A DNA stretch of 64,000 nucleotides from Myxococcales bacterium (GTDB lineage: Bacteria > Myxococcota_A > Bradymonadia > UBA7976 > UBA1532). Below, piece by piece: positions 49,564 to 63,876 of the stretch. The translations under genes and the position numbers were made by a program. Position 1 is the stretch's first letter; the number at the start of each line of letters is the position of its first letter. The notes under the pieces were generated by a model that made no database searches, was not told where the DNA came from, and saw only the letters and a program-made list of their open reading frames with translations. The stretch spans positions 202,962 through 266,961 of the forward strand of contig PCCS01000001.1 of NCBI GenBank assembly GCA_002731825.1. Direction: 5' to 3'.

Positions 49564-50481
49564 TCATCCATAGAGCAGTTGAGCGCATTGATTTGCGAAT
49601 GCCCAAAAGAAATCGTCTCCGAAAAAAAGTGCTTCCAGTGCGGCCAGCGAGAGGAAGGGACCGTAGGGTATAACCGTTCTAGATGGATGGCCTTGATCTG
49701 CGTATTTCTCGTCTTCACCGAAATAAGCATCCAATTGCTCCGTCGTTGTTGTCAGGGTGTCTTCTGCGCCCGTTATCTTGCTATACAAACGGACCAAGAA
49801 GACCGCTAGGAGTGCCTGGACGGAACTGGCAAAAATCACAAATGCAAGTGGCTTCCAGCCTAAGAAAGCCCCGATTAACGCCATCAGCTTAGCATCGCCA
49901 AGACCCAGCGCTTCGCGCTTGAAAATCAACCAGCCAAGGCCAAAAATAGCCAGCATGAATCCTGCGCCAACGGCAGCACCAATAAGCGCGGTCTGACCAC
50001 TGTACATGGGGAGTAGGTAGGCGCCGCCAATGCCGATGATGGTACCGGGGAGACTCAGTTCATCTGGGATGAAGAAATGCTCCAGATCGATGAAAATAAT
50101 CACCACAAGGGCATAAATAAAGGCCTGCAACCACATCCAATGAGCAAAATTGATCCAGATCGTGTCCGGCTCGAAGGTCTTGAAAATCGCTCGGAACAGA
50201 ACAAGGCTCATGATGCCACAGGCGCATTCGATGAGCGCGTAGCGCGGACTAAATGTCGCACCGCAGGCCCGGCATCGGCCACGCAAGATCAGATAACTCA
50301 AGCAGGGAATGTTATCGTACCAGCGGATAGGCACTTCACATGTGCTGCATCTAGAGCCTGGATTGACTAAAGATAAACCCTCTGGAAGGCGATAGATCAC
50401 GACGTTTAGAAAACTACCCCACGCCGTCCCCCAGAAAAACGCGATCAGGAATAAGAACGTGATGGCAGGGGAGTCGATCAT
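49564..50481 (-). CDS. pilD: prepilin peptidase / N-methyltransferase (A24 family)
   Basis: Zn-finger-like CSTCEVPIRWYDNIPCLSYLILRGRCRACG, catalytic Asp regions (FIDLEHFFIPDE, GLGDAKLMALIGAFLGW). Confidence 0.85.
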   Translation of the reverse strand: MIDSPAITFLFLIAFFWGTAWGSFLNVVIYRLPEGLSLVNPGSRCSTCEVPIRWYDNIPCLSYLILRGRCRACGATFSPRYALIECACGIMSLVLFRAIFKTFEPDTIWINFAHWMWLQAFIYALVVIIFIDLEHFFIPDELSLPGTIIGIGGAYLLPMYSGQTALIGAAVGAGFMLAIFGLGWLIFKREALGLGDAKLMALIGAFLGWKPLAFVIFASSVQALLAVFLVRLYSKITGAEDTLTTTTEQLDAYFGEDEKYADQGHPSRTVIPYGPFLSLAALEALFFGDDFFWAFANQCAQLLYG

Positions 50482-52952
50482 TATCGAACCTGTATTGAAC
50501 CGAGTCGAGCGCGATTTTGTTTATCGCTTTTACCAGACTTAATTTTCATCCGGGTGCTGGATCGGTATAGACCGGCATAGAAGGTAAAGCGCGCCGGCGT
50601 AATGGTTCGCTTGATATTGATCTTATGGATGTCTCGGACCAGGTCGCCTTTCTTCCAATTTCGGGTCGGGAAAAGGCCCGCCACGGGGTCATGATCGCCG
50701 TGTATACGCTGACCGGGTGCATCGATATGGACGAAGACTTTCCAGGTAGACTGTGTTTTGGCTGTCGACTTCCAAAACATATGTAATTCAGCAGGGGAGC
50801 CGCTCTTTGGCTGACTCGGCTCAATTTTCCAAGCGACTAATTCGATCTTGTCCTCGAAGTTAATATTCACTTTAGTCACGCCATCGGGCAGTTCATCGAT
50901 CAAGGCGTTGGTAATCGGGTTTTTGTCGACGACACCCTCGTCGATTTTGTTGGAGACAAGGAAATACCGCGAACCTCGGTCATCGAGAACAGGGAGAGTG
51001 CGGCCAGTGGCCCGTCTAAACTCGACGTTGACAGAGGCGAGATCTTTTCTCGGGATTAACGCGAAAAAACGCTCGGTCCCCTTCGCCAATTTAGCAAAAT
51101 CGGTCGACGTCTTCAGCTTGGGTAAGTCTCTGGAATAAAATGAATTCGTCTGATTAGAGAGTCTATAGGTGTAGAGTTTCTCATCTCCACTGGCCACTTT
51201 CTTATAGACGTTGAGAACCTCTTTTTGCGAGAAATTCGTACTGAGTTCACTGGCGATGGGTACATTAAAGAAAAAGAGCCAGGACATGAGCACAGTCATT
51301 AGAATGAGCGTGGACATCGGGGCGCCAGTCAGGTGCGTGATACGGCCGGAAAGGGCTGAACGACCATCGATTGTGTCTCGAACCCAGCGCGATGTTTTCG
51401 AGAGGAGGCCTGAGGTTCTGCCCTTCAGCATTTTGTTACGGATGTAGCAAACCAACCAGACACTGATGTAGGTGATCAGACCGAGTATCAATGCGATGAT
51501 CAAACGTCTGAACCAGAACTGTAGATTACCCCAGCCATCGCCCCGTACCAGCGGGTCCAATGTGGTTCGGCGTTGCAGTAAAAGAAGAGGAACCAGGGCG
51601 GCCATGGCGAAAATAGCCAAATCAAAGTAGGGGCGTCGACGAACTGGATAAGCGAAGTATTGAACAAAGCCAGAGAGCCAATGGTGGAGTCGAGCTTGGT
51701 AGAGCAAGATATACGCAATGAGAGCGAAATTTAAGAATCGGGCGATTTTCCAATAGGGCAGATAAGCAGGAAATGAGTCGATAGATGTCCCGACGATCGT
51801 ATCGGCGAATAAGCGCGTTTCATGTTTCAGATTACTGTCTAAGAGCGCCAGAATCAGCACCGCGATGATGGCCAGGACTGGATTTGCATCCTGTTTAGGC
51901 ATTCGACCAAGGTAGATTGCAATGGCAAATGCGGCTCCAGGGGCAGCGAGAAAAATACCGAAATGGCTGTAGCCTGCGCCCAAAGCCGGGGCAATAAACC
52001 CAGCCAAGATCCAAACGAATAGAACCGCTCCCAGGCCTGAGTCCTCATTGGATGTATCTTTGCTCCAAAGCAGCGTCAGTAACGCCAGGGGCAGCAGCGC
52101 TCCGAAAGGAAAGAGGCCAAAACCAATTTGGTGGACGAATGCATTAAAGGAAGGGCGGGTTGTGCCTGTTGTCGAATGGATGTTGTCAGCCCAGAGAAAC
52201 AATGACTCCAAAGCGGCATCTCCAGGCATGTATAGGGAGGCTCGCCACCAGCCAAGGCCAACGATGAGCAAAGCGACGACAGCCCAGCTCCAGCGCATCA
52301 CAGTCGAACGCGAATCTCTGCCAATCCTGTAGCTAAACAATGTGAAGAGAACGGCCATTGGAATGGCTAACGCCGGCACGCCTCCAGACAAACCTGACAG
52401 TGCCGTGAGCACCCAAGCGCCTATCCAAATGGCCCGACCAGGTGAAAATCGACTATGTATAAAGGCCAGAGATGCGGTTGTCGTTGCCATCAATGTTGTC
52501 GACTGACCCAGGGCCAGCCAGTGATGAAAACAGAAGAGGGGCAGGCTTAGAAGAATGATCGCGCTCCACCAGGCGACAGCGCGGCCCGCGAATCGGCGAA
52601 CGGTGAGCATCAGAAAAAATAGGGTTGAGGCCCCAAAGATGAGTCCGGCCAATCGCAGTGATAGGGTTGATGTGCCGAGCAAAGAGACGCTTGCGGCTAC
52701 AGGCCAATAGCCAAATGGTAAGTCTGATACGGCATGTTCTTTAGCCCCACTGCCTTGACCAACATTCACTTCGAGCCAACGACCATTATCGACCATATGG
52801 TTCGCTACGGCGGAAATGTTAGCCTCCCAGGGCTCCCAGACGCCAAATTGGGTCGCGGCGGCGGTCAAGATCCCCAGAGCCAATAGACCACCGATCAGGG
52901 GATCTAAGCGGGCCGGCCACAAGCCGCCGGGTGTCTGCTGTTGGTCTGTCAT
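50481..52952 (-). CDS. GT-C fold glycosyltransferase (GT39/ArnT/PMT_2-like) with large C-terminal soluble domain
   Basis: 823 aa. More than 12 TMs in the first ~560 aa with an ArnT/PMT-like N-terminus (VWEPWEANISAVANHMVDNGRWLEV), then a ~250-aa soluble domain. Its TAA overlaps the pilD ATG by 1 nt (TAATG). Confidence 0.65.
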   Translation of the reverse strand: MTDQQQTPGGLWPARLDPLIGGLLALGILTAAATQFGVWEPWEANISAVANHMVDNGRWLEVNVGQGSGAKEHAVSDLPFGYWPVAASVSLLGTSTLSLRLAGLIFGASTLFFLMLTVRRFAGRAVAWWSAIILLSLPLFCFHHWLALGQSTTLMATTTASLAFIHSRFSPGRAIWIGAWVLTALSGLSGGVPALAIPMAVLFTLFSYRIGRDSRSTVMRWSWAVVALLIVGLGWWRASLYMPGDAALESLFLWADNIHSTTGTTRPSFNAFVHQIGFGLFPFGALLPLALLTLLWSKDTSNEDSGLGAVLFVWILAGFIAPALGAGYSHFGIFLAAPGAAFAIAIYLGRMPKQDANPVLAIIAVLILALLDSNLKHETRLFADTIVGTSIDSFPAYLPYWKIARFLNFALIAYILLYQARLHHWLSGFVQYFAYPVRRRPYFDLAIFAMAALVPLLLLQRRTTLDPLVRGDGWGNLQFWFRRLIIALILGLITYISVWLVCYIRNKMLKGRTSGLLSKTSRWVRDTIDGRSALSGRITHLTGAPMSTLILMTVLMSWLFFFNVPIASELSTNFSQKEVLNVYKKVASGDEKLYTYRLSNQTNSFYSRDLPKLKTSTDFAKLAKGTERFFALIPRKDLASVNVEFRRATGRTLPVLDDRGSRYFLVSNKIDEGVVDKNPITNALIDELPDGVTKVNINFEDKIELVAWKIEPSQPKSGSPAELHMFWKSTAKTQSTWKVFVHIDAPGQRIHGDHDPVAGLFPTRNWKKGDLVRDIHKINIKRTITPARFTFYAGLYRSSTRMKIKSGKSDKQNRARLGSIQVR

Positions 52953-53112: not shown

Positions 53113-54609
53113 CTAGAAGCCCAGCTCGATGCAGAGGCCTTCAGGGGTATTCGGGATCTGGAAGCAGCTGAATCCGGGATGGCAGCCGACGAGGACGTCG
53201 GGAGAGAAGAAATCATCGGGATTGACCTTCCGACACGAACACGCGGCGCTCATCGATAGTGGATTCAAGGTACATGTACCACCTGGTGCGCAGACGCCTT
53301 CGCCTCCAGCACCTGGATCGCAGGTTCCATCACGATAGAAGCACTGGCCTGTTTGTACGTTACAGTCCATGGTCTCAGCATCTGTACAATCTGCAGCGTT
53401 ATTACAACCGGGCTCACATCGCCCAGTCTGTACGCTACATTGGGACCCCATCTGGCATGTCAGTCCAGCACAGGGTGCACTCTCGCATTCAAATGTGTCC
53501 AAATTACAGGCCGAACGAGCTGGGCAATCCGTGTCATCGAGACATTCGACACAATTACCTTGAAGACAAATTGGTCGCCCACCACATGTCTCACATTGGG
53601 AATCATTCCCGCATTCGCACGGCTCACTGCCCGTACACGTGTTTGTCATCTGGTCACAAAATTCACCGATTGGGCAGGGCGTATCATTACTGCATTCGCC
53701 GCACATACCCGTCTCTGGAATGCAGGCAGGTGTTGGGTCTTGGCATCGGCCTCCGCAGCTATCACAGCGACCTCCATTGGGCGTACACACGCCGTCTGTA
53801 CAGGTATAGTCGCCTGCACACCCACCCCCGTTGGCGCAGGTCTGTAAGCAGAAATTACCATTTTGGGCGGGTCGGCAGACATGGTTGTCTGCACAGCTTG
53901 AATCGCTGGTGCAAGATTCACAAGTCCCCCGGGGCATTACGCATTGCCCACTGCTCAAATCGCAGGCCAAACCGGCGTCGCAACCCCGGCCAGGGCAGAC
54001 GGTACAATCATAGTTAACGGGCACACATTGACCGAGTTGTTCGAGACATGTGAAGCCTTCAGGACAGTCTTCGAGGCCTTCGCCACATGCGGTTGTACAA
54101 AAGCTGCCCGTATTTCCAATCGGTGTACACTCAGCACCTTCGCCCAAGGCATTGCAGTCCCGGTCTGTGCTACAGGTCTGGCAGAGGCCTTGGTACGTGG
54201 ACCCGCCCGCATCGGTCTGCACTGAGCCGGCATCTCGCGAACTCATCCCCATATCAGTATTTATGATAAGTACATCGGCGACCATCGTGGGTTCGGGTAC
54301 ACAAGACCAAAGGTAAGGACCGTCGTCCACGCAGACTTGACCAGCGGGACACATGAGGATGCCATCCCCGCATTCTCGACGCGTACAACTATTGGTCGCC
54401 TGGAGGCAAACTCGACCGGATCCGGGACACTCGCCTAAGCTCTGGCAGGGTTCGGCCACGCATTCTTTCGACTCATCATCGCAAATGAGGCCTCGGCCGC
54501 AGTCAGCATCTACGTTACAGCTCTGGGGCTCATCGTCTGAACAACCCGTCGCAACAGACATTAGGGCGCCCAGTAGAATGATAGTCTTGACTGAAAATAA
54601 GCTACGCAT
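53113..54609 (-). CDS. cysteine-rich repeat lipoprotein
   Basis: Lipobox LMSVATGC. About 71 Cys in 498 aa, with repeated C-x2-C-x2-D-x-[DST]-C...C...C modules (CQTCSTDRDC, CESCTSDSSC, CGECSNDTPC, CVECLDDTDC). Confidence 0.8.
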   Translation of the reverse strand: MRSLFSVKTIILLGALMSVATGCSDDEPQSCNVDADCGRGLICDDESKECVAEPCQSLGECPGSGRVCLQATNSCTRRECGDGILMCPAGQVCVDDGPYLWSCVPEPTMVADVLIINTDMGMSSRDAGSVQTDAGGSTYQGLCQTCSTDRDCNALGEGAECTPIGNTGSFCTTACGEGLEDCPEGFTCLEQLGQCVPVNYDCTVCPGRGCDAGLACDLSSGQCVMPRGTCESCTSDSSCADNHVCRPAQNGNFCLQTCANGGGCAGDYTCTDGVCTPNGGRCDSCGGRCQDPTPACIPETGMCGECSNDTPCPIGEFCDQMTNTCTGSEPCECGNDSQCETCGGRPICLQGNCVECLDDTDCPARSACNLDTFECESAPCAGLTCQMGSQCSVQTGRCEPGCNNAADCTDAETMDCNVQTGQCFYRDGTCDPGAGGEGVCAPGGTCTLNPLSMSAACSCRKVNPDDFFSPDVLVGCHPGFSCFQIPNTPEGLCIELGF

Positions 54610-54853: not shown

Positions 54854-55444
54854 ATGAGTAATCTCAAGATTCCAGATGTTTTTTCGACGCATTCGGCGGC
54901 GAAGTATTGCCGTGTCACCCCAATGACCATCATTCGGTGGATCGAAGAGGGCAGAATCAAAGCGTATAAAACACCCGGTGGACATCGTCGGATCATGCGC
55001 GGTGATTTGGATGAGTTTTGTCGGGCGACCGGGATCCCTATCGAATGGGACACGCGCATTAACCAAGGGCCAAAGCGTGTTCTCGTCATCGATGACGATG
55101 AGCAGTCTGTCAATTCAATTTTGGATGCGCTCTTGGATGCTGAAGGTGACGAATCAATGGTCACCTTCAAAATTGCTCACACAGACAATGCCTTCGATGC
55201 CGGTATGATGATGCGAGATTTAAAGCCGGAGATCATTTTTCTCGACCTAGACCTGACCGGCACCGATCCTGTTCGTCTCATCGCATCCATTCGCCACGAC
55301 GCCGATTTACGCGATTGTCGGGTGGTTGGCATCGCGTCCGAGCAAACACCGGCAAACATGCCGGTCGATCGTGTGCTGCACCGACCCCTCGCCCGAGGTG
55401 CCGTTCGACAGGCGACGGGTCCCATGCCCATCGTTAAAATTTAG
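54854..55444 (+). CDS. excisionase/MerR-type HTH fused to a C-terminal receiver-like domain
   Basis: N-terminal HSAAKYCRVTPMTIIRWIEEGRIKAYKTPGGHRRIMRGDLDEF. C-terminal REC text (RVLVIDDDE, IIFLDLDLTG, VVGIAS, LHRPL). Confidence 0.75.
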   Translation: MSNLKIPDVFSTHSAAKYCRVTPMTIIRWIEEGRIKAYKTPGGHRRIMRGDLDEFCRATGIPIEWDTRINQGPKRVLVIDDDEQSVNSILDALLDAEGDESMVTFKIAHTDNAFDAGMMMRDLKPEIIFLDLDLTGTDPVRLIASIRHDADLRDCRVVGIASEQTPANMPVDRVLHRPLARGAVRQATGPMPIVKI

Positions 55445-55614
55445 AGCAACGCGTCCCATCGAATCGCCAGTCTCATCTTTTAGGCAAATTGACAACTATA
55501 TCTCCGTAAAGCCCCAGGGGAATGGGATTAATTTGCCGTGGACGGTTTAATAATCATGTGGTTTAGTGTACCCAGAGGTATTCAAAGGCAGCATAGGTTC
55601 TTCGGAGGTCCTTT

Positions 55615-56517
55615 ATGAATCGCTCAATTGGTGTACGCAGTCTCATTTCGGCGGGTATTAACAAGTTAAAGGCACCGACAGATGAGATCCCGATTACAGG
55701 AAGCCGGCGTGCTTTGGTCATGGCCATCGCAGCGCAGAAGGGCGGAGTGGGTAAAACAACCACCACAGTCAACCTGGCATGCGCATGGGCAAAGCAGTCT
55801 AAGTATCGCATTCTCGTCATCGACATTGACCCTCAAGGGCACGTGTCGTCCTCGCTCCGGGAAAACATCAAGCCAGCCTCGTCGACGTTGACGGATATTC
55901 TCTTGGCCGAGAGACCACGGGATATTTTGGACGCTGTCTTTCAAACCAATTTACCCAATTTGAGTTTAACAGCCGCTGATAAGGGGCTCGCCGAAACTGA
56001 TGCCCAGATGGCGAGCCGAGTTGGTCGTGAATACATTCTTAAGAGTGCCATCGCCAACGCAAGGAGCCATTTCGATATTATTCTCATCGATTGTCCACCC
56101 AATTTGGGCAACCTGACACTCAATGCGCTCGTGGCAGCTGATCATGTCCTGGTGCCCTGTGATATGAGCATTCTCGCCTTCGAAGGTGTTGCGGACCTAC
56201 TGGGCACTGTTCGAACTGTCAATTTGCGGCTCGGCCAGAATCTCGACGTTGCGGGCATTATTCGAACCCGCGTCGATGGGCGGACCCGGCAAATTAATGA
56301 TGCCATTGGTGGGGCACTTCGAGATAATTACGGCGACCTTCTTTTGGACACCATTATCCCGATTAATTCGGCCCTAGCAAAAGCCCAGGCGGCGGGTCTG
56401 AGCATATTTGAATTTCAGGCTCGTTCCAGGGGGGCAGAAGCCTATCTTGATCTGTCTAATGAGCTTGAGGGCCGTTTGTCACTCGGTGCAGGTCAGGACC
56501 GTGTTTCGACCTATTGA
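55615..56517 (+). CDS. ParA/MinD-family ATPase (orphan, no ParB nearby)
   Basis: Deviant Walker A AAQKGGVGKTTTTVNLA, ILVIDIDPQG, IILIDCPPNLG. GGAGG RBS. Confidence 0.85.
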   Translation: MNRSIGVRSLISAGINKLKAPTDEIPITGSRRALVMAIAAQKGGVGKTTTTVNLACAWAKQSKYRILVIDIDPQGHVSSSLRENIKPASSTLTDILLAERPRDILDAVFQTNLPNLSLTAADKGLAETDAQMASRVGREYILKSAIANARSHFDIILIDCPPNLGNLTLNALVAADHVLVPCDMSILAFEGVADLLGTVRTVNLRLGQNLDVAGIIRTRVDGRTRQINDAIGGALRDNYGDLLLDTIIPINSALAKAQAAGLSIFEFQARSRGAEAYLDLSNELEGRLSLGAGQDRVSTY

Positions 56518-56641: not shown

Positions 56642-58654
56642 TTGAACCTCCGTTCATCATCATCAAAGAGCATCAAACGAGTCCCGAAAGCAGCGCCTAA
56701 GTCAGGACGCAAGCGCAGACAGCGCCAGCCGGTACCCGTAACCGCGGACTTATTACGGTCGACGCCGTTCTTTGCCAACTTGCCGAAAGACTATCTCGAT
56801 GCATTGGTTCCGCGGGCGGAGCATGTTGAGTTGGCCCGTGGCGACGACGCATTTAATGCCCGTCCAGTCGGTGGTCAAGATATGGCATTGTTCCTGGTCT
56901 TGTTCGGAGACCTAAGCGTTCACAGAACCCAAAATAAGGGCCCAGAGGAGACAGTAAATTACCTCACCGTCGGTGATTTCTTCGTCGAAAGACTTATCGT
57001 CGATGACGATACAAAATCTATACGGTTAACCGCCATGTGTCCGGTGCGGCTTTTGAAGGTCAGTTACGCTGACTTCAATGTTTTGCTGCGGGCTCACGAT
57101 GACCTTCGCGGCGCTTTTTCCGACCGCATCCGAGATGTGGTCGATCGCCAAAAATCCAGATTTGATGATGCTTTCCAAAAAGAGATCGCTCGTTTCTTAG
57201 TCCAAGAACGACTCACTTTTGCCGGGCGAGTGAAACTCAAGCGCATGGACTTGTGCATCGAATGTGATGGCTGCTATTCGGCATGCAAAGATCGTCATGG
57301 GACTGATCGTCTGGGTCCAAGTGAGGTGAAATATGGACTCACTGAGGTTCCCCAGAACTGCCACAACTGTGTGGTTCCTGAATGTATGGACAAATGTAAG
57401 TTTGGACACATCGGGCGACATGCTGTCACCGGTGAAATTGTCATAGACGATAATTGCATTGGCTGCACAATGTGCAGCAAGGGATGTAGCTTTGGGTCCA
57501 TTCGGATGCACCCGATCGCTGAGCTGGATATGGAAAAGTATTTTCCAAATCGGTCGCCCGATGCCAAAGGTAAAGCCATTGCTCAGAAATGTGATAACTG
57601 CACTGGCTACGAAGACAAGGCATGCATTTCGGCGTGTCCTACAGGGGCTCTATTTCAGCTGGATGGCGCTGAGTTATTTGATAATTGGCGACAATTTTCC
57701 CCGCAATCCGTGCCCGATGGTGACGCCATCGAGAGTCCCAATGAGTTTCCTCATGGCTGGCGACAATTCTGGGTGGCGCTGACGGTTTTCGTCACTGTTT
57801 TTCTGTCTTGGGAATGCTTCGGCCGTTTGTACTGGCCCAAAGTTACTTTCGCAGAACTCTTTTTCCAGCTCGGCTGGTCTGAATCTGGGGTTGACCCAGT
57901 TGTGCCCTTTCGTGCGGGTGACTTTTTCAGTCATGCCCTTGGTTACATTGGCGGCGGTCTGATGATCGGGACACAAGTGTATCGATTGAGGGGTCGATTC
58001 AGTACAACACCTGTCTTGATGGAGGCTCATATCTGGATGGGTGTGATCGGGTTTATCATGGCGTTTTTTCACACCGCTTTCGTCTTCAGTGATCCCATTG
58101 CCGTGGCCACGTTTTTGACCATGTTTTTGGCCGTACTCACGGGGACCATCGGACGCTATGTTGTCTATATCGTGCCTCGGAACAAACATGGTCATGAACT
58201 TCTCCTAGACGAAGTCAATGACCGTATTGGTGATGTGACTAGGCAAATCGAGGGCGTTTTTTCCGACCCAAGTGTCGGTCATACGGCCATCGTCAGATTG
58301 AAAGATATCATGGGTCAGGAGAAAAGCGAGAGAGCGCTGGTGTCCACAGAGTCTCGTGGGTGGCGGCCGTTCATTGCGCTTTTAGTCGATTTAATTCGGC
58401 GTGATGCACTCACCAAAAAACGCGTCTCAGACCTTGCGAGCGAACTGAGTCATGGCCTTGAAGACGATAATCAGAGCGCCCAGGTCGAGACTCTGATGAC
58501 CGAGAAAAGCCGCTTGGAACGGGCCATTATGCAGCATGCATTTTTGTCCAAGGTCTTAAAAAGATATCGAATTGTCCATGTCACGAGCAGTAACATCATG
58601 TTTGGAGCGCTTGTTTTACATATTGTTTTCGCGTTGATGTATCAGGTGAATTGA
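56642..58654 (+). CDS. fusion: cNMP-binding-like domain + four-cluster (16-Cys) ferredoxin + 5-TM domain with two His-x13-His helices (di-haem b type)
   Basis: TTG is the only possible start (in-frame TGA at 56633). There is no signal peptide. cNMP text is LLRSTPFFANLPKDYLDAL...GDFFVE...IRLTAM. Cys groups are C205/208/211/215, C240/243/248/252, C272/275/278/282 and C317/320/328/332. TM helices carry H463/H477 and H646/H660. Confidence 0.7.
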   Translation: MNLRSSSSKSIKRVPKAAPKSGRKRRQRQPVPVTADLLRSTPFFANLPKDYLDALVPRAEHVELARGDDAFNARPVGGQDMALFLVLFGDLSVHRTQNKGPEETVNYLTVGDFFVERLIVDDDTKSIRLTAMCPVRLLKVSYADFNVLLRAHDDLRGAFSDRIRDVVDRQKSRFDDAFQKEIARFLVQERLTFAGRVKLKRMDLCIECDGCYSACKDRHGTDRLGPSEVKYGLTEVPQNCHNCVVPECMDKCKFGHIGRHAVTGEIVIDDNCIGCTMCSKGCSFGSIRMHPIAELDMEKYFPNRSPDAKGKAIAQKCDNCTGYEDKACISACPTGALFQLDGAELFDNWRQFSPQSVPDGDAIESPNEFPHGWRQFWVALTVFVTVFLSWECFGRLYWPKVTFAELFFQLGWSESGVDPVVPFRAGDFFSHALGYIGGGLMIGTQVYRLRGRFSTTPVLMEAHIWMGVIGFIMAFFHTAFVFSDPIAVATFLTMFLAVLTGTIGRYVVYIVPRNKHGHELLLDEVNDRIGDVTRQIEGVFSDPSVGHTAIVRLKDIMGQEKSERALVSTESRGWRPFIALLVDLIRRDALTKKRVSDLASELSHGLEDDNQSAQVETLMTEKSRLERAIMQHAFLSKVLKRYRIVHVTSSNIMFGALVLHIVFALMYQVN

Positions 58655-58804: not shown

Positions 58805-61123
58805 ATGGGGCGCCCCTCGGCACAGACTAGGTCAGTCATTCGTCGGTTTATTCTGCCAACCATTACCGTTTGGGCACTCTTTACTCTGTTTTGCAATTCA
58901 CAGGTTTTTGCTGTCGGCCCCCTATCGACGCCTCATGCGCGGTACGACAATAACAACGATTGCACGAAGTGCCATGACATCTTTGGTGGTATGCCCAATC
59001 GAAACTGCCTCAATTGCCATAAGAGAATTGGCCAAAGGATCAGTGCTCGAAAAGGCTATCATGGGCGTAACGCAGCCGGTGCCAAATGTCATGACTGCCA
59101 TCGCGAACATCGTGGGCGTGGCTACGGGATTACCCAACTCAACCGGCGAACGTTTGATCATAAAACCACGGGTTGGTCGCTGACGGGTGGCCATACCCGT
59201 GTTCCATGCCGGGAATGCCACAGTGCAAAGAGGCCTGGAACGAATCGAGACAGTTACCTAGGTGCGCCGACCAGCTGTAATGGCTGCCACGGTAGCTATC
59301 ATGGACAGGGCCAAAAAGCTGAGTTGAATCGGTGCCAGGATTGTCACAACACCCAAAATTGGGCCTCTCTTAACGAAAAGTTAAAGTTTAACCACAACAC
59401 CCAAACCAATTTTCCACTGACAGGTCTTCATCGAGACGCGTCATGTGATAAGTGTCATCTCGGCAAGCGTAATTTCGGACCAATTGAGGTCTCCGGCTGT
59501 GTATCCTGCCATAAAAATCCCCATCCGATCGGCGTATTTGGATCACCCCGCAAGTGCGAGGAATGTCATATGACCAGCGGATTTAAGAAAACAAATGTCT
59601 TTGACCATTCAACGGCGGGCTGGCCCCTCCGTGGTAAGCACGCGGTCAATGCATGTACGGACTGTCATTCCTGGGAGAAATGGCGGCCGCCAACCAACGA
59701 TTGTCGAGGGTGTCATGTCGATGTCCATAAGGGGCAATTTGGGCGACAGCGATGCGATAGTTGTCACAAACAGACAGGCTTCACGGGACGGCACTTGAAG
59801 TTTAATCACAATACGATGAGCCGCTTTCCTCTGAAGGGCCGTCATACGCGTGTCGATTGTGCGAGCTGCCACCCTGGTGGTCATTACAAACCCTTGCCCA
59901 TGGAATGCGCCGATTGCCACCAAGATGACAATCCACACGGGGATAAGTTTGGTGATACGCCATGCAGCAATTGTCACTCACCGGTCGATTGGATGAAGAC
60001 GCGCTTTGACCACAGTGTCACCGGATTTGCTCTCGAAGAACGTCATGCCGAACAGCCATGTTATCGTTGCCATCCCAATGGGACAGAGACCGAAGACGAC
60101 ACGGAAAGGCGCTGTTCATTTTGTCATACAGACGTTCATCAAGGCCAATTCGAAGCCCCGCTGGACCAGCTCAATCGGGCCCTTGAACCGAAACAAGCAT
60201 CGGACGGCTGTGACAAATGTCATGCGGGTTTCCGGTCCTGGAAGATCCCGTTTTTCGATCACACCATAAGCCAGTTTTCACTGACCGGTCAGCACCAGAC
60301 GGTCCCCTGTACAGGCTGTCATACTCAGGGTCATTTCAAACCCATTGATGCGGCGTGTGCCAATTGTCATTACAACTTTCATGAGGGTCAGTTTAGTCAG
60401 CCATGTGACCAGTGTCATACCACCAAGGCCTGGTCGCCATTGGAGGAATTTGACCACAATACGAGGACTGAATATCGACTGGATGGCCGTCATGAAGAGG
60501 TTGATTGCGGCAAGTGTCATACGAACAATATTTATACAGACACGCCGAAAGAGTGCGCGGAGTGTCACGTCGATGTCCACAAGGGCAAGTTGGGCCCGGG
60601 CTGTGATCGCTGTCATGGCGTCGAAGACTGGTCAATCAACACCATGCAAGACCATGATTTTGGTGCTTTTCGGTTGGGAGGAGTCCATGACCTATTGGCC
60701 TGTGAGGAGTGTCATGGTCCAGACCGCAAGGAGACGCAAGCCGGGCGAGGTCCAGAATGTGTAAATTGCCATCGCGATCCCCATTTTGGGAGTTTTGGCC
60801 CTCAATGTTTCGAATGCCATAATCAGCAAGCATTCTTGCCCAGTACCTTTCTACATGCGGAAACGGGCTTTAGACTCTCCGGGGCGCACCGCTTTGTTGA
60901 ATGTCGTGATTGCCATCCAGGCCGTGTGTTCGGCGGACTCCCCAATGATTGCTTCTTTTGCCATACACAAGATTTCAATGCCACGGCCGGCAGCAAGCTC
61001 TGCGACCATACGGCCTGTATTCCGGGTGGGCTGGATTCCTGTCACAACTGTCATCGATCGACCAGTTTTGTCCCAGCGAGACCCGGTTCAGGGTGTGGGG
61101 TCTGTGAGGTCAATGGCCGATGA
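58805..61123 (+). CDS. periplasmic multihaem cytochrome c, 30 CXXCH motifs (c7/c3-type tri-haem units)
   Basis: Signal peptide (ITVWALFTLFCNSQVFA|VGP). I counted 30 CXXCH motifs in 772 aa, arranged 3 per unit. Confidence 0.9.
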   Translation: MGRPSAQTRSVIRRFILPTITVWALFTLFCNSQVFAVGPLSTPHARYDNNNDCTKCHDIFGGMPNRNCLNCHKRIGQRISARKGYHGRNAAGAKCHDCHREHRGRGYGITQLNRRTFDHKTTGWSLTGGHTRVPCRECHSAKRPGTNRDSYLGAPTSCNGCHGSYHGQGQKAELNRCQDCHNTQNWASLNEKLKFNHNTQTNFPLTGLHRDASCDKCHLGKRNFGPIEVSGCVSCHKNPHPIGVFGSPRKCEECHMTSGFKKTNVFDHSTAGWPLRGKHAVNACTDCHSWEKWRPPTNDCRGCHVDVHKGQFGRQRCDSCHKQTGFTGRHLKFNHNTMSRFPLKGRHTRVDCASCHPGGHYKPLPMECADCHQDDNPHGDKFGDTPCSNCHSPVDWMKTRFDHSVTGFALEERHAEQPCYRCHPNGTETEDDTERRCSFCHTDVHQGQFEAPLDQLNRALEPKQASDGCDKCHAGFRSWKIPFFDHTISQFSLTGQHQTVPCTGCHTQGHFKPIDAACANCHYNFHEGQFSQPCDQCHTTKAWSPLEEFDHNTRTEYRLDGRHEEVDCGKCHTNNIYTDTPKECAECHVDVHKGKLGPGCDRCHGVEDWSINTMQDHDFGAFRLGGVHDLLACEECHGPDRKETQAGRGPECVNCHRDPHFGSFGPQCFECHNQQAFLPSTFLHAETGFRLSGAHRFVECRDCHPGRVFGGLPNDCFFCHTQDFNATAGSKLCDHTACIPGGLDSCHNCHRSTSFVPARPGSGCGVCEVNGR
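59153..61054 (+). repeat. intragenic tandem array of nine diverged tri-haem modules (65-83 aa each)
   Basis: Most modules open with F-[DN]-H (module 8 has QDH, module 9 FLH), followed by [FW]-x-L-x-G-x-H-x4-C-x2-C-H (residues 117, 195, 266, 333, 401, 484, 549, 615, 682), and each contains exactly three CXXCH. Confidence 0.8.
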
Positions 61124-62442
61124 AATCGATGCAGCAGTGGATTCTCGTGTTCTCATTATTCCTGCTTTCTATCCCCTCCGCTGGGGGCGAAGAGTTGAAA
61201 ATCGATGGCCGCGTTGCGTCACGTAGTCTCTACTCAACAGCTGACGGACCCGTCTCCAAAGATGTGCTATTCCAGTTTGTAGATTTGGATTTAGATGTTG
61301 AGAATATGGGCCCCTTTGACACGGCTCTCACACTAGATGCCACGCTTCTTTGGGATATCAGCGAAGTCAAAGAACGACGATTTGGCGAGACTCAGTCATT
61401 TCAGCAGCTCAGACAACTCTATCTTCAACAGGCTTTCACTCAAAAGTGGACCGTGTCGGCCGGTCGGCGCATTATTTTTCAGGCTGGAAATGCTTGGGTT
61501 GACGGCCTTGATGTTCAGCTCAAATTGAATTCGACGATGATGGTTGGTGCCTACGGTGGGCTGAGGCCCGACCCGAACAGCTATCAGCCAACAACGACGT
61601 ACCAGACGGTGGGCAGTTACTCGAGTTACAAACGAGACGGACTGAACGTCGAACTGGGCTACAACCTGATTTTGAGGGACGGATTGGATCGTCAGTTTCT
61701 GTATGGGCGAACCCATTATCGATTGGCCCCAGGCCTTTACGTAAACGTCTATTCGGTCGTCGATACACTCGATGAAATTGAGCCTGTAACACTATTGTCG
61801 ACCCTTGATTATACCCCCACAAAGGCGGTTAATCTGTCCATTAACTATACGCGCTACAGTATTGAAGCGTACCGCAATCAGGCCATCTATCGAAATGTCG
61901 TTCGCCTCAACCAAGCGCTACTGCTCGGTGATGAAATCATCGACCTTGTCTACAATCGTGTCCGTCTGTCTGGTTCCTATCGATTTTGGCGGCGCTATTA
62001 TCACTATCAGACCATCGAGTACAAGAGGCGGAGCCAAGACCGGAGGCAATCTTGGGCCTACACCATAGGACTTCGTAATAGCGACCTATTCTCGACGGGG
62101 ACACGGTTCGACCTGCGGACAACCATTCGAAATAATTTTCAGAGTGATTCCTGGTTGATCGCCGGTGATTTGGAGAAAGACATCTTTTTGGAACTGACCC
62201 TGAATGGCCATGTCACGGTTTTCGATGGGCGTACTATTGACCGGTTTACGGAGCGGGGGCGCACATTCGATGAAGCGCAACGTATTTATCTGATGGGCGG
62301 CTCTTTATTCTGGCGGCCCTCCCGGGCACATCATCTGAGTTTGACCTACGACGGTGTCTACGAAACCGACCTGATCGACCAGCGGAACGACGCAGCCTTG
62401 TTTATTCACACAGGATTATTTCGTTACGCCTATCATTTCTGA
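61120..62442 (+). CDS. outer-membrane beta-barrel protein translationally coupled to the cytochrome
   Basis: ATGA overlap with the cytochrome stop. Signal peptide (ILVFSLFLLSIPSAGG|EE), alternating strand pattern rich in Y/R/D/G/N, and a C-terminal OMP-type ending FRYAYHF. Confidence 0.75.
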   Translation: MKSMQQWILVFSLFLLSIPSAGGEELKIDGRVASRSLYSTADGPVSKDVLFQFVDLDLDVENMGPFDTALTLDATLLWDISEVKERRFGETQSFQQLRQLYLQQAFTQKWTVSAGRRIIFQAGNAWVDGLDVQLKLNSTMMVGAYGGLRPDPNSYQPTTTYQTVGSYSSYKRDGLNVELGYNLILRDGLDRQFLYGRTHYRLAPGLYVNVYSVVDTLDEIEPVTLLSTLDYTPTKAVNLSINYTRYSIEAYRNQAIYRNVVRLNQALLLGDEIIDLVYNRVRLSGSYRFWRRYYHYQTIEYKRRSQDRRQSWAYTIGLRNSDLFSTGTRFDLRTTIRNNFQSDSWLIAGDLEKDIFLELTLNGHVTVFDGRTIDRFTERGRTFDEAQRIYLMGGSLFWRPSRAHHLSLTYDGVYETDLIDQRNDAALFIHTGLFRYAYHF

Positions 62443-62477: not shown

Positions 62478-63035
62478 TCACACTTCCATAAGTTCGTCTT
62501 CTTTGCGTCCAACAATGCCATCGATGGTCTCTGTTGCGCCATCCGTCAAGCCCTGAACCTTGTCCAAGGATTTCTTAAGCTCATCTTCTGTTAAGTCGCC
62601 ATCTTTCTGGAGGGCTTTGAGCATTGCGTTGGCATCTCGTCGGCTATTACGTGCCGACACCTTAGCCGTTTCACCTAATTTCTGAACTGTCTTGACCAGT
62701 TCTTTCCGTCTTTCTTCCGTCAATGGAGGAATCGACAGACGAATCACTGTGCCGTCATTGGATGGATTAAGCCCCAGATTCGACTGCTGAATCGCGCGCT
62801 CAACATCTCCCAGAAGGTCTTTCTCCCAGGGCTTTATAGAAATTGTTCTCGGCTCTGGAATCTGCAGCGATGCGACTTGATTGAGCGGTGTCGGTTGTCC
62901 GTAGTAGGATACCCTAATGTTGTCGAGTAAATTGACGTTCGCGCGACCCGAACGCACTCTGGCGAGATCCCGGCGCAGGGCGCTATAGGTCTTCTCAAAA
63001 GTCGCTTTTAAGTCTTCGTAGATTTCGTCTTCCAT
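62478..63035 (-). CDS. frr: ribosome recycling factor
   Basis: 185 aa with RSGRANVNLLDNIRVSYYGQPTPLNQVA and PPLTEERRKELVK. Confidence 0.95.
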   Translation of the reverse strand: MEDEIYEDLKATFEKTYSALRRDLARVRSGRANVNLLDNIRVSYYGQPTPLNQVASLQIPEPRTISIKPWEKDLLGDVERAIQQSNLGLNPSNDGTVIRLSIPPLTEERRKELVKTVQKLGETAKVSARNSRRDANAMLKALQKDGDLTEDELKKSLDKVQGLTDGATETIDGIVGRKEDELMEV

Positions 63036-63153
63036 AACGCATTCACTCCTATTGGATTGGTCGAACGTAACGACGATAGCATACGAAATACGACCTTGGG
63101 AGTCATTTGCGGGATTCTATATTTGAGAGGAGAGCGTGGGGCGAACGGGCACC

Positions 63154-63876
63154 CTAAACTGTGATCGTTGTGCCTACGCTCTGCCGCTTAGCGACACGAA
63201 CAATGTTGCCAGGTGTACCCAACTCGAAGACGACGATTGGCATCTTGTTTTCGCGGCATAGGCTAATGGCCGTTGCATCCATGACCCGAAGGTCCTCGGC
63301 CAAGCATTCACTGTACGTGACGTGGTCATACTTAATGGCGTCTGAATGGATCATCGGGTCTTTGTCGTAGATGCCGTCTACTTTGGTTGCCTTGAGAACG
63401 GCATCTGCTCCAATTTCTACGGCCCGAAGGGCGGCGGCTGTATCGGTGGTGAAGTAGGGATTGCCGGTTCCTGCGGCGAAGACCACCACCCGCCCTTTCT
63501 CAAGGTGTCTCATGGCGCGGCGTCGAATAAACGGCTCAGCCACGCGCGGCATTTCGATGCCGCTCATGACGCGCGTTTTCAGACCGACTTTCTCAAAACC
63601 TTCTTGGATCGCGATGGCATTGATCGCTGTGGCCAGCATACCCATATAATCGGCACTGGTTCGATCCATGCCTTGGGCAGCACCGGCAACACCTCGAAAG
63701 ATGTTGCCACCACCGATAACCACAGCTAATTCGATACCGAGAGCACGGACTTGGCTGACTTCAGATGCAATCTGAGAAATGACGTTAGGCGATATTCCGT
63801 ATGTCCCCTCGCCGATCAAGGCTTCGCCTGAAAGTTTCAAAAGGAGACGCGTATAGGGTGGTTTATCGCCCGTCAT
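63154..63876 (-). CDS. pyrH: UMP kinase
   Basis: [39 protein letters not shown]. Confidence 0.95.

What the first reader, a model, noticed from the sequence alone, without database searches (positions are those of the whole stretch)
56642..58654. Novel fusion: cyclic-nucleotide-binding domain + four-cluster ferredoxin + di-haem-b-type membrane domain
Seen: (i) there is no signal peptide and the N-terminus is basic. (ii) Residues ~37-165 have CAP-family cNMP-binding text. (iii) Sixteen Cys form four groups: CIECDGCYSAC, CHNCVVPECMDKC, CIGCTMCSKGC and CDNC-x7-CISACP. This is the DmsB/NrfC/PsrB pattern for four [4Fe-4S] clusters. (iv) There are five predicted TMs. With the N-terminus inside, TM3 and TM5 run in the same direction, and each carries two His exactly 14 residues apart (H463/H477 in HIWMGVIGFIMAFFH; H646/H660 in HVTSSNIMFGALVLH). 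Established: His pairs 14 apart on two parallel helices are the bis-haem ligation pattern of cytochrome b (H83/H97, H182/H196) and of ferric-reductase/NOX domains. Inference: this is a cytoplasm-facing Fe-S wire feeding two stacked b haems across the inner membrane, gated by cAMP/cGMP. I know of no characterised protein with this combination.
Basis: partly seen in the sequence, partly recalled or inferred. Interest (0 to 1): 0.8.

Follow-up and report, generated by a model that had tools for sequence, protein, structure and literature searches.

The report
Iron-sulfur/haem-b membrane electron exporter fusion
This gene encodes an uncharacterised membrane protein that most likely passes electrons from four cytoplasmic iron-sulfur clusters through two membrane haems to a 30-haem periplasmic cytochrome and an outer-membrane barrel, but its "cyclic-nucleotide" domain lacks the residues needed to bind cAMP or cGMP.

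Summary
The sequence observations are confirmed. ORF 56642-58654 (+) encodes 670 aa with three parts: a CAP-type beta-barrel domain, 16 Cys in four [4Fe-4S] motifs, and a 5-TM C-terminal domain. The TM domain has His463/477 and His646/660 on two parallel helices.

All 16 Cys are invariant in 81 homologues. The four His stay invariant in 86 sequences that include stand-alone TM homologues of about 20% identity.

The TM domain belongs to a large uncurated family (3,388 representative clusters). This family sits next to Pfam DUF4405 and Ferric_reduct, and DUF4405 is an experimentally shown haem-b cytochrome.

The gene is part of a conserved Myxococcota/Bradymonadia cassette:
- a Cys-rich lipoprotein;
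- this fusion;
- a 30-haem cytochrome built from c7-type repeats;
- a barrel-like outer-membrane protein.

Relatives carry an FAD/NAD(P) domain fused or adjacent. A split version resembles the published but uncharacterised 'ptd' porin-cytochrome operon.

The cAMP/cGMP gating idea is not supported. The phosphate-binding cassette is degenerate in all 83 family members.

Verdict: a real, uncharacterised, probably quinone-independent inner-membrane entry module for a multihaem conduit, and a new variant of the NOX/FRD/DUF4405 kind. Cofactors, direction of flow and His geometry are still untested.

The parts
56642..58654 (+). Fusion gene of 670 aa: CAP-fold domain, then a 4x[4Fe-4S] ferredoxin-like domain, then a di-haem-b-type membrane domain.
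   Evidence: There are 83 near-full-length homologues at 41-69% identity, all from Myxococcota/Bradymonadia MAGs.
56744..57166 (+). CAP/CNB-fold domain (residues about 35-175) with a degenerate phosphate-binding cassette.
   Evidence: Pfam cNMP_binding, E 1.8e-7. Foldseek hits to CRP/PKG. PBC residues are not conserved.
57227..57676 (+). Four-cluster [4Fe-4S] ferredoxin-like domain (residues about 196-345; 16 invariant Cys).
57737..58651 (+). Membrane domain (residues about 366-670). It has 5 TM helices and a cytoplasmic bundle of three long helices (511-608) between TM4 and TM5. His463/477 lie on TM3 and His646/660 on TM5.
   Evidence: AF2 model of the TM domain alone: pLDDT 90.6. The His are invariant in the superfamily alignment A4. 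DUF4405 and Ferric_reduct hits in family members. The profile finds 3,388 representative clusters.
58805..61123 (+). Periplasmic cytochrome c of 772 aa with a signal peptide and 30 CxxCH motifs, arranged as ten c7-type trihaem modules.
   Evidence: It lies directly downstream in 20 of 25 informative GTDB loci and in a 29%-identical relative.
61120..62442 (+). Secreted protein of 440 aa, a putative outer-membrane beta-barrel. Its start overlaps the stop of the cytochrome gene.
   Evidence: It has a signal peptide, no Cys, no TM helix and many alternating-hydrophobicity segments. 64 of 68 homologues end in F or Y. It has no Pfam or NCBIfam match. It always follows the cytochrome gene.
53113..54609 (-). 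Cys-rich lipoprotein (498 aa, 71 Cys, 68 of them at least 90% conserved, no CxxCH). It is the most constant neighbour of the fusion across Myxococcota.
   Evidence: In most loci it lies directly upstream on the same strand. In this window it is inverted and about 2 kb away.
54854..56517 (+). HTH_17 plus receiver-domain regulator (54854-55444) and a ParA/MinD-like ATPase (55615-56517). They sit between the Cys-rich gene and the fusion only in this subclade, so whether they belong to the system is doubtful.

Best explanation
The protein is the inner-membrane entry module of a multihaem electron conduit.

Proposed path:
1. Four [4Fe-4S] clusters on the cytoplasmic side take electrons from a low-potential donor. 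In relatives the donor is a fused or adjacent FAD/NAD(P)H oxidoreductase. Here it is an unidentified partner or a ferredoxin.
2. The clusters pass the electrons to a cytoplasm-proximal haem b (His463 + His646).
3. They then move to a periplasm-proximal haem b (His477 + His660). Both haems sit in a four-helix core in which TM3 and TM5 are parallel.
4. From there electrons go to the co-encoded 30-haem cytochrome made of c7-type repeats. It is long enough in principle to bridge the periplasm.
5. Finally they move on through or next to the co-encoded barrel-like outer-membrane protein. A dedicated Cys-rich lipoprotein takes part in some unknown way.

The flow is most likely outward and need not pass through the quinone pool.

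The N-terminal CAP-fold domain is a regulatory or docking module. It is not a canonical cAMP/cGMP sensor.

What is shown: domain identities, residue conservation and gene linkage. What is inferred: cofactor content, haem ligation pairs, direction of flow, donor and acceptor.
For: - The 16 Cys are invariant and the four His are almost invariant in the family.
- The four His, with Y447, G501 and G504, are the only invariant columns across 86 sequences at about 20% identity.
- TM domains of family members reach DUF4405 scores of 32.7, 27.8 and 34.3 bits against a gathering score of 26.7. There are weaker Ferric_reduct and Ni_hydr_CYTB hits.
- A DUF4405 protein was purified and shown to bind haem b (PMC11334425).
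- The FRD superfamily is defined by four His on TM3 and TM5 (PMC3591440).
- The topology from charges and the AF2 model places the Fe-S domain and both 'inner' His on the cytoplasmic side.
- The fusion, the 27-30-haem cytochrome and the barrel are linked in the window, L001, L002 and 20 of 25 informative GTDB loci. The same linkage holds in a 29%-identical relative with unrelated flanking genes.
- Relatives have the architecture Fer4 + Pyr_redox (FAD/NAD) + the same TM domain. These are P0085-P0091 and P0211. One of them lies next to cytochromes with 33 and 65 CxxCH motifs.
- A split version exists in L008: a cNMP-Fer4-FAD protein, then a 287-aa TM homologue with all four His, then a decahaem cytochrome.
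- The ptd operon contains the same modules.
Against: - No cofactor has been observed.
- The window protein itself has no significant Pfam hit in the TM domain (Ferric_reduct E 0.58).
- Foldseek of the confident TM model finds no solved cytochrome; the best E is 0.04, to ABC transporters.
- A profile search of PDB sequences finds only coiled-coil noise.
- Five of 25 informative Myxococcota loci, plus the L004/L006 clade, lack an adjacent cytochrome and barrel.
- The barrel assignment rests on sequence features only.
- No electron donor is encoded nearby.
- Many source MAGs appear, from their isolate names, to come from lake and marine samples. Anaerobic metal respiration is not an obvious function in such habitats.
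Confidence: 0.55

Rival explanations
1. It is a quinone-coupled enzyme. The di-haem domain would carry a quinone or quinol site, as in Bacillus-type succinate:menaquinone reductase or FdnI/NarI. [quoted passage not shown]
For: - Di-haem b membrane subunits fed by Fe-S subunits classically end at a quinone site (established knowledge of SQR/QFR, Fdn-N and Nar).
- Conserved polar residues cluster at the periplasmic ends of TM1 and TM2: E391 81/81, R395 80/81 and H431 79/81. They could form such a site.
- Some loci lack the cytochrome and barrel.
- One stand-alone homologue hits Ni_hydr_CYTB weakly.
Against: - There is no homology to FdnI, NarI or SdhC above noise.
- E391, R395 and H431 are not invariant in the wider family.
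- Multihaem cytochromes recur as neighbours across very different architectures.
- The nearest Pfam families (DUF4405, Ferric_reduct) are trans-membrane electron exporters.
Confidence: 0.15
2. Electrons flow inward. The barrel and the 30-haem cytochrome would collect electrons from an extracellular or periplasmic donor, for example Fe(II), and the fusion would deliver them to cytoplasmic Fe-S acceptors.
For: - Porin-cytochrome systems work in both directions in nature (MtoAB/PioAB; established knowledge).
- Nothing in the sequence fixes the direction.
Against: - Inward electron movement runs against the membrane potential and towards low-potential [4Fe-4S] clusters.
- Relatives carry NAD(P)H/FAD domains on the cytoplasmic side. 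As in NOX/FRE enzymes, this argues for export (PMC3591440).
Confidence: 0.1
3. It supplies electrons to the periplasm for the Cys-rich lipoprotein, not for extracellular respiration. The role would be thiol/disulfide or metal redox maintenance, analogous in logic to MsrQ-MsrP or DsbD. The cytochrome and barrel would be an accessory branch.
For: - The Cys-rich lipoprotein is the most constant neighbour. It lies directly upstream in essentially every informative Myxococcota locus, including those without the cytochrome and barrel.
- Its family is small, and its members repeatedly lie on the same contigs as members of the fusion family.
- 68 Cys are at least 90% conserved.
Against: - I know of no precedent for haem b reducing protein disulfides directly (my own knowledge, not searched).
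- The regular 6-7-residue Cys spacing, with only 2 His, looks like a structural disulfide-knotted repeat.
- The distant relative L003 has the cytochrome and barrel but no Cys-rich gene.
Confidence: 0.1
4. It is a redox or ligand sensor, not a conduit. The CAP-fold and Fe-S domains would sense a cytoplasmic signal and the membrane domain would only anchor or signal.
For: - CAP-fold domains are typically regulatory.
- A response regulator and a ParA-like ATPase lie upstream in this window.
Against: - There is no output domain.
- Four clusters plus four invariant His form a wire, not a sensor.
- The regulator and ParA genes are absent from most loci.
Confidence: 0.05

Closest known systems
DUF4405 (PF14358), MsrQ and PepSY-like membrane cytochromes b (PMC11334425)
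   Same: - Membrane domain with four central, most-conserved His.
- Predicted trans-membrane electron transfer to extracytosolic redox partners.
- Family members score above the DUF4405 gathering score, on both His-pair helices.
   Different: - The core has 4-5 TM helices instead of 6.
- There is a cytoplasmic insert of about 100-130 aa, made of three long helices, between TM4 and TM5. The stand-alone homologues share it.
- The partners are multihaem cytochromes c, not flavinylated proteins.
- The window protein itself scores below the threshold.
Ferric reductase domain superfamily: NOX, FRE, STEAP, YedZ (PMC3591440)
   Same: - His pairs on TM3 and TM5, spaced i,i+14 and i,i+13 or i,i+14, that ligate an inner and an outer haem.
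- A cytoplasmic redox domain feeds electrons outward.
- Fusions to Fe-S domains (Fer2, Rieske) are known. Relatives of this protein carry FAD/NAD domains.
   Different: - The feed here is a 4x[4Fe-4S] ferredoxin-like wire plus a CAP-fold domain, with no FNR-type FAD/NADPH domain.
- Only sub-threshold Ferric_reduct scores.
- No Foldseek match to solved NOX or STEAP structures.
ptdABCDEFG putative porin-cytochrome operon of marine bacteria (bioRxiv 10.1101/2023.11.21.568154)
   Same: The module inventory is the same: a cNMP-domain protein with 4Fe-4S clusters (PtdE), a ferric-reductase-like TM protein (PtdF), a porin, and periplasmic multihaem cytochromes. Its function is also unknown.
   Different: - In ptd the modules are separate genes, together with an FAD/NAD(P) oxidoreductase (PtdC) and penta-, tetra- and decahaem proteins.
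- In this window PtdE-like and PtdF-like parts are one polypeptide, there is no FAD protein, the cytochrome is a single 30-haem protein, and a Cys-rich lipoprotein is added.
- Direct homology to the Ptd sequences was not tested because they were not at hand. I compared only a look-alike locus, L008.
Geobacter and Shewanella extracellular electron transfer (EET) systems: ImcH, CbcL, CbcBA or CymA, with Pcc or Mtr porin-cytochrome complexes (PMC9129911, PMC4245776)
   Same: An inner-membrane cytochrome module, periplasmic multihaem cytochromes and an outer-membrane barrel are encoded together. CbcL also has a di-haem b TM domain.
   Different: - The known inner-membrane modules are quinol oxidoreductases whose c-haem domains lie in the periplasm. 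This protein instead has a cytoplasmic Fe-S wire, which suggests it bypasses quinones.
- The barrel shows no detectable homology to MtrB or OmbB.
- There is no surface multihaem lipoprotein.
Formate dehydrogenase-N FdnH/FdnI and di-haem succinate:quinone reductases
   Same: A four-cluster DmsB-type ferredoxin module, or a three-cluster module, is wired to two stacked b haems that span the membrane (established structures).
   Different: - Those are multi-subunit enzymes with a catalytic subunit and a quinone site.
- FdnH is periplasmic, which is the opposite orientation.
- Their cytochrome b folds are unrelated to this domain by sequence.
Geobacter 'nanowire' cytochromes GSU1996, GSU0592 (12 haems each) and GSU2210 (27 haems) (PMC10138318)
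   Same: The downstream 30-CxxCH protein is a polymer of c7-type trihaem modules.
   Different: It has ten modules, and it is genetically coupled to an inner-membrane Fe-S/haem-b protein and a barrel.

Membership tests
CAP/CNB cyclic-nucleotide-binding domain (PF00027) | Eight-stranded beta-barrel fold with flanking helices | tested here: met
   Pfam score 31.5 bits against a gathering score of 27.5. In the AF2 model pLDDT is about 95. Foldseek hits to CRP/PKG have probability 1.0.
CAP/CNB cyclic-nucleotide-binding domain (PF00027) | Phosphate-binding cassette: F-G-E ... R-[ST]-A | tested here: not met
   Gly is replaced by V/I (never Gly). Glu is Gln in 61 of 81 sequences. The Arg position holds Arg in 17 of 81. 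Ser/Thr is not conserved. Ala is replaced by L/I/M/V. The canonical pattern matches 0 of 83 members but does match distant relatives.
CAP/CNB cyclic-nucleotide-binding domain (PF00027) | Binds cAMP or cGMP | not testable with these tools
   Needs ITC or a fluorescence binding assay.
Four-cluster [4Fe-4S] ferredoxin-like proteins (DmsB/HydN/HycB type) | Four Cys groups (CxxCxxCxxxC variants), 16 Cys, conserved | tested here: met
   The motifs start at residues 205, 240, 272 and 317. All are present in 81 of 81 sequences.
Four-cluster [4Fe-4S] ferredoxin-like proteins (DmsB/HydN/HycB type) | Profile match | tested here: inconclusive
   Fer4_7 (29.4 bits) and Fer4_9 (27.2 bits) are just above their gathering score of 27. 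Fer4_11 scores 23.3, below its 26.2. NCBIfam AegA, HydN and PadI match at E 1e-9 to 1e-10, but far below the equivalog cut-offs.
DUF4405 / ferric-reductase-domain di-haem cytochromes b | Four conserved His, two on each of two parallel TM helices, about 13 residues between them | tested here: met
   H463/H477 and H646/H660 are invariant in A4, which has 86 sequences.
DUF4405 / ferric-reductase-domain di-haem cytochromes b | Pfam model above the gathering score | tested here: inconclusive
   The window protein does not pass (Ferric_reduct E 0.58; no DUF4405 hit). Three of the 7 TM domains scanned (the window's plus six homologues) and several stand-alone homologues do pass for DUF4405.
DUF4405 / ferric-reductase-domain di-haem cytochromes b | Six-TM architecture; structural similarity to solved NOX, STEAP or MsrQ-like folds | tested here: not met
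   There are 5 TM helices plus a cytoplasmic helical insert. Foldseek against the PDB gives no cytochrome hit; the best E is 0.04.
DUF4405 / ferric-reductase-domain di-haem cytochromes b | Binds two haems b; the His pairs face each other | not testable with these tools
Needs cofactor-aware modelling and spectroscopy.
Porin-cytochrome (Mtr/Pcc-type) EET conduit | Periplasmic multihaem cytochrome encoded next to an outer-membrane barrel | tested here: inconclusive
   The 30-CxxCH cytochrome is clear. The barrel is inferred only from its signal peptide, lack of Cys, C-terminal F/Y and strand-like periodicity. There is no homology to MtrB or OmbB.
Porin-cytochrome (Mtr/Pcc-type) EET conduit | Cell-surface multihaem lipoprotein (MtrC/OmcB-like) | tested here: not met
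   No second cytochrome lies within 10 kb in most loci. The only lipoprotein is haem-free and Cys-rich.
ptd operon (bioRxiv 10.1101/2023.11.21.568154) | A cNMP/4Fe-4S protein, an FRD-like TM protein, an FAD/NAD oxidoreductase, a porin and penta-, tetra- and decahaem cytochromes | tested here: inconclusive
   The module content overlaps. The look-alike split locus L008 has a TM homologue at 49 bits. I had no Ptd sequences for a direct comparison, and the window has no FAD protein.

The most novel reading that the evidence does not exclude
Three or four proteins form a complete electron conduit from the cytoplasm to the cell surface that does not use the quinone pool. The parts are the Fe-S/di-haem-b fusion, a periplasm-spanning 30-haem wire, an outer-membrane barrel and a Cys-rich lipoprotein. 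Low-potential cytoplasmic reductant is exported directly. The flow is controlled by an unknown, non-cNMP ligand that binds the degenerate CAP-fold domain. The TM family (more than 3,000 representative clusters) would then be a widespread, unrecognised class of inner-membrane gateways for multihaem cytochromes.
Probability: 0.35. Interest if true: 0.75.

Novelty: new variant of a known kind. Interest (0 to 1): 0.6.

Why it matters
All well-studied inner-membrane entry points to extracellular electron transfer (CymA, ImcH, CbcL, CbcBA) draw on the quinone pool. A module that wires cytoplasmic Fe-S clusters through two b haems straight to periplasmic multihaem cytochromes would be a different solution. 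It would have different energetics, because electron export would be driven by the membrane potential and would dissipate it.

The membrane domain defines a large family that no Pfam model fully covers. The family repeatedly sits next to multihaem cytochromes in Myxococcota, in a Pseudomonadales MAG (L008), and probably in the ptd systems of marine bacteria. One biochemical characterisation would therefore annotate thousands of genes.

The finding also gives a concrete case of a CAP-fold domain that has lost its cNMP cassette while being kept in a redox protein.

Tried and rejected
- Foldseek of the full model returned only CNB-domain hits.
- I then folded the TM domain alone (pLDDT 90.6). Its PDB search gave only weak ABC-transporter and BAR-domain noise.
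- A profile search of PDB sequences with the 86-sequence TM alignment gave only designed coiled coils and haemagglutinin, driven by the helical insert.
- I looked for model coordinates to measure His-His and cluster-haem distances. None were exposed.
- I searched the window for an FAD/NAD partner by tblastn with relatives. The only hits were to the fusion gene itself.
- The promoter and terminator scan of the cassette gave counts at the shuffle expectation. It says nothing about operon structure.
- I considered a Tat/Sec-exported Fe-S domain (NrfC/HybA-like) and rejected it. There is no signal sequence, and the N-terminal CAP-fold domain and the loop charges place the Fe-S domain in the cytoplasm.
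- I considered that the two His pairs arise by chance. For the single sequence this is not negligible (4% of shuffles). Invariance across the superfamily rules it out.
- One literature search failed on a term that was too short.
Full report
**What is in the sequence**

The ORF at 56642-58654 (+) is real. It is identical to a 670-aa 'hypothetical protein' of a Myxococcales MAG. Its N-terminus is basic (11 K/R in 30 residues) and disordered in the model (pLDDT below 50 for residues 1-24). It has no signal-peptide h-region.

Three modules follow.
- **CAP-fold domain, residues about 35-175.** Pfam cNMP_binding matches at E 1.8e-7, just above the gathering score. AF2 pLDDT is about 95. Foldseek top hits are CRP/PKG CNB domains.
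- **Fe-S domain, residues about 196-345.** It carries 16 Cys in four motifs. It is recognised by the Fer4 families. It is closest to the ferredoxin-like parts of AegA, HydN and PadI.
- **Membrane domain, residues about 366-670.** No Pfam model reaches significance for the window protein itself.

**Conservation**

Eighty-three near-full-length homologues (41-69% identity) share the whole architecture, and one 29%-identical relative does too. The 26 loci recovered from GTDB species representatives are all MAGs. By their record titles they are Myxococcota, Myxococcales, Nannocystaceae, Bradymonadia, 'Deltaproteobacteria' or unclassified 'bacterium'.

In the 81-sequence alignment all 16 Cys are invariant. 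The four His are present in 80/81, 81/81, 80/80 and 79/80 sequences.

In the single sequence, two His pairs at i,i+14 are not very improbable: 4% of shuffles give as many, and a third pair, H632/H646, exists. Conservation therefore carries the argument.

**The membrane domain is a family of its own**

A profile of the TM domain, searched exhaustively, finds 3,388 representative clusters at E <= 1e-3 and 1,634 at E <= 1e-10. Most of the top 150 listed are stand-alone proteins of 270-330 aa that match from TM2 to the C-terminus, including the helical insert.

In an 86-sequence alignment that includes these proteins (about 20% identity), the only invariant columns are Y447, H463, H477, G501, G504, H646 and H660.

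Pfam matches are as follows.
- Three of the 7 TM domains scanned (the window's plus six homologues) score above the DUF4405 gathering score.
- Several stand-alone and multidomain homologues score near or above it, with both His-pair helices matching the same part of the model.
- Ferric_reduct and Ni_hydr_CYTB appear below threshold.

A DUF4405 protein has been purified and shown to bind haem b, and the authors describe four central His (PMC11334425). The FRD superfamily is likewise defined by four His on TM3 and TM5 that ligate an inner and an outer haem (PMC3591440).

The AF2 model is confident: pLDDT 85.4 and pTM 0.74 for the full protein, and pLDDT 90.6 for the TM domain alone. It shows TM helices 371-397, 428-449, 456-478 and 485-510, then three long soluble helices (515-605), then a helix 609-669 that runs into TM5.

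Loop charges give an N-in, C-out topology. H463 and H646 are then near the cytoplasm, and H477 and H660 near the periplasm. An offset of 14 residues on a helix is about 21 A on roughly the same face. This matches the haem spacing of cytochrome b and NOX (established knowledge).

I could not verify the geometry because coordinates are not exposed. No solved structure resembles the domain.

**The CAP-fold domain is not a canonical cNMP sensor**

I aligned the domain to PKG and CRP and tallied the family columns.
- The FGE of the phosphate-binding cassette is [Y/F]-[V/I]-[Q/E]. Gly is never present.
- The phosphate-binding Arg position is Arg in only 17 of 81 sequences. It is Lys in the window protein.
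- The following Ser/Thr is not conserved.
- The Ala is replaced by a bulky aliphatic residue.

A canonical cassette pattern matches none of the 83 members. It does match several distant relatives of the FAD-cNMP-Fer4 type, which serves as a positive control. The proposed cAMP/cGMP gating is therefore not supported. The domain may bind another ligand or serve as a docking or regulatory module.

**Genomic context**

Directly downstream lie two genes.
- A 772-aa secreted cytochrome with 30 CxxCH motifs in ten regular triplets, giving Cytochrome_C7 and c3 hits. It is comparable to the Geobacter c7 polymers GSU1996 and GSU2210 (PMC10138318).
- A 440-aa secreted protein whose start overlaps the cytochrome stop. 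It has no Cys and no TM helix. It has many alternating-hydrophobicity segments, and 64 of 68 homologues end in F or Y. I read it as an outer-membrane barrel, by inference only.

I called ORFs and ran HMMs on the 26 GTDB loci.
- The cytochrome is present in 20 of 25 informative loci. In two of these the contig ends before the barrel gene, or part-way through the cytochrome gene.
- The same cassette follows the 29%-identical relative, whose flanking genes are unrelated.
- A Cys-rich lipoprotein lies directly upstream in essentially every informative Myxococcota locus. This includes the clade that lacks the cytochrome and barrel.

The Cys-rich lipoprotein has 71 Cys in the window copy, 68 of them at least 90% conserved, only 2 His and no CxxCH. 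In this window it is inverted at 53113-54609. A response-regulator gene and a ParA-like gene are inserted between it and the fusion. Its family is small, and members repeatedly lie on the same contigs as the fusion family. Its role is unexplained.

**Relatives that reveal the logic**

- Proteins P0085-P0091 and P0211 combine Fer4, an FAD/NAD(P) Pyr_redox domain and the same TM domain in one chain. One of them is flanked by cytochromes with 33 and 65 CxxCH motifs.
- In a Pseudomonadales MAG the order is a cNMP-Fer4-FAD protein, then a 287-aa TM homologue with all four His (49 bits), then a decahaem cytochrome.
- This matches the module list of the ptdABCDEFG operon described from marine bacteria. 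That list includes a porin, an FAD/NAD oxidoreductase, a cNMP-domain 4Fe-4S protein, a ferric-reductase-like TM protein and multihaem cytochromes. Its function is stated to be completely unknown (bioRxiv 10.1101/2023.11.21.568154).

**Mechanism proposed**

Electrons enter the cytoplasmic four-cluster wire, cross the membrane over two b haems, and are handed to the 30-haem cytochrome and onward to the outer membrane.

Two arguments favour the outward direction. Relatives carry NAD(P)H/FAD domains on the cytoplasmic side, and the membrane potential favours export. Both arguments are inference.

Unlike ImcH, CbcL, CbcBA and CymA, which are quinone oxidoreductases (PMC9129911), nothing here requires the quinone pool. 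A quinone site cannot be excluded, however.

The electron donor of the window protein is unknown. No FAD partner is encoded in the 64-kb window.

**Novelty and score**

The principle is known: a cytoplasmic redox domain plus an FRD/DUF4405-type di-haem domain that exports electrons. The module set has been noticed once in split form.

Four things are new.
- The fused CAP-fold, 4x[4Fe-4S] and di-haem architecture.
- The distinct TM family with its cytoplasmic helical insert.
- The four-gene Myxococcota cassette with a 30-haem wire and a Cys-rich lipoprotein.
- The loss of the cNMP cassette.

I rate it a new variant of a known kind, with interest 0.6.

Noticed in passing
window 53113-54609 (-); also directly upstream of the fusion in L002, L004, L006 and L012-L036: A dedicated Cys-rich lipoprotein family (about 500-560 aa, about 70 Cys spaced 6-7 residues apart, 68 of them at least 90% conserved, 2 His, no Pfam hit, weak TIGR04201 Myxo_Cys_RPT). 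It is the most constant neighbour of the fusion, and is present even where the cytochrome and barrel are absent. Its function is unknown.
   Followed up: partly
window 54854-55444 (+) and 55615-56517 (+): An excisionase-type HTH_17 plus receiver-domain protein and a ParA/MinD-like ATPase sit between the Cys-rich gene and the fusion. This occurs only in this subclade (window, L001 and probably L011 and L013). It coincides with inversion of the Cys-rich gene, which suggests a local rearrangement.
   Followed up: partly
window 58805-61123 (+): The 30 CxxCH motifs fall in ten regular triplets with a period of about 66-70 aa. This makes it a decamer of c7-type trihaem modules, larger than the 27-haem GSU2210. 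The count of 30 is kept in nearly all Myxococcota loci. The distant L003 has 27.
   Followed up: partly
L010 1180-9714 (-): A 2,844-aa cytochrome with 65 CxxCH motifs lies divergently next to a Fer4-FAD-TM relative (P0086) in a Myxococcota MAG. An 837-aa protein with 33 CxxCH lies downstream.
   Followed up: no
L009 3504-5984 (+): An 826-aa protein combines 8 CxxCH motifs (c3-type) with a Pyr_redox_2 FAD/NAD domain. It is encoded after a cNMP-cNMP-Fer4 protein and a 280-aa weak TM homologue. A c-type cytochrome fused to a pyridine-nucleotide oxidoreductase domain is unusual.
   Followed up: no
window residue H632 of the fusion (nt about 58535-58537): A third His lies exactly 14 residues upstream of H646 on the same continuous helix (609-669). 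This would place it about 21 A further into the cytoplasm. It appears in the family consensus but is below 90% conserved there, and it is not invariant in the superfamily alignment A4.
   Followed up: partly
window residues E391, R395, H431, Y447, R505 and R513 of the fusion: Further invariant or near-invariant polar residues sit at the ends of the TM helices. E391, R395 and H431 are on the periplasmic side. Y447, R505 and R513 are on the cytoplasmic side. They are candidates for haem-propionate contacts, a partner-docking site or a quinone site.
   Followed up: no
window 49564-52952 (-): A type IV prepilin peptidase (A24) gene abuts an 823-aa PMT_2-type glycosyltransferase-like membrane protein. 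The same pair precedes the Cys-rich gene in L001.
   Followed up: no
window 62478-63876 (-): The frr (ribosome recycling factor) and pyrH (UMP kinase) genes converge on the cassette. In L001 and L002 the same frr-pyrH-tsf-rpsB block follows the barrel gene. The cassette therefore sits at a conserved chromosomal position beside housekeeping genes and is not on an obvious mobile element.
   Followed up: partly
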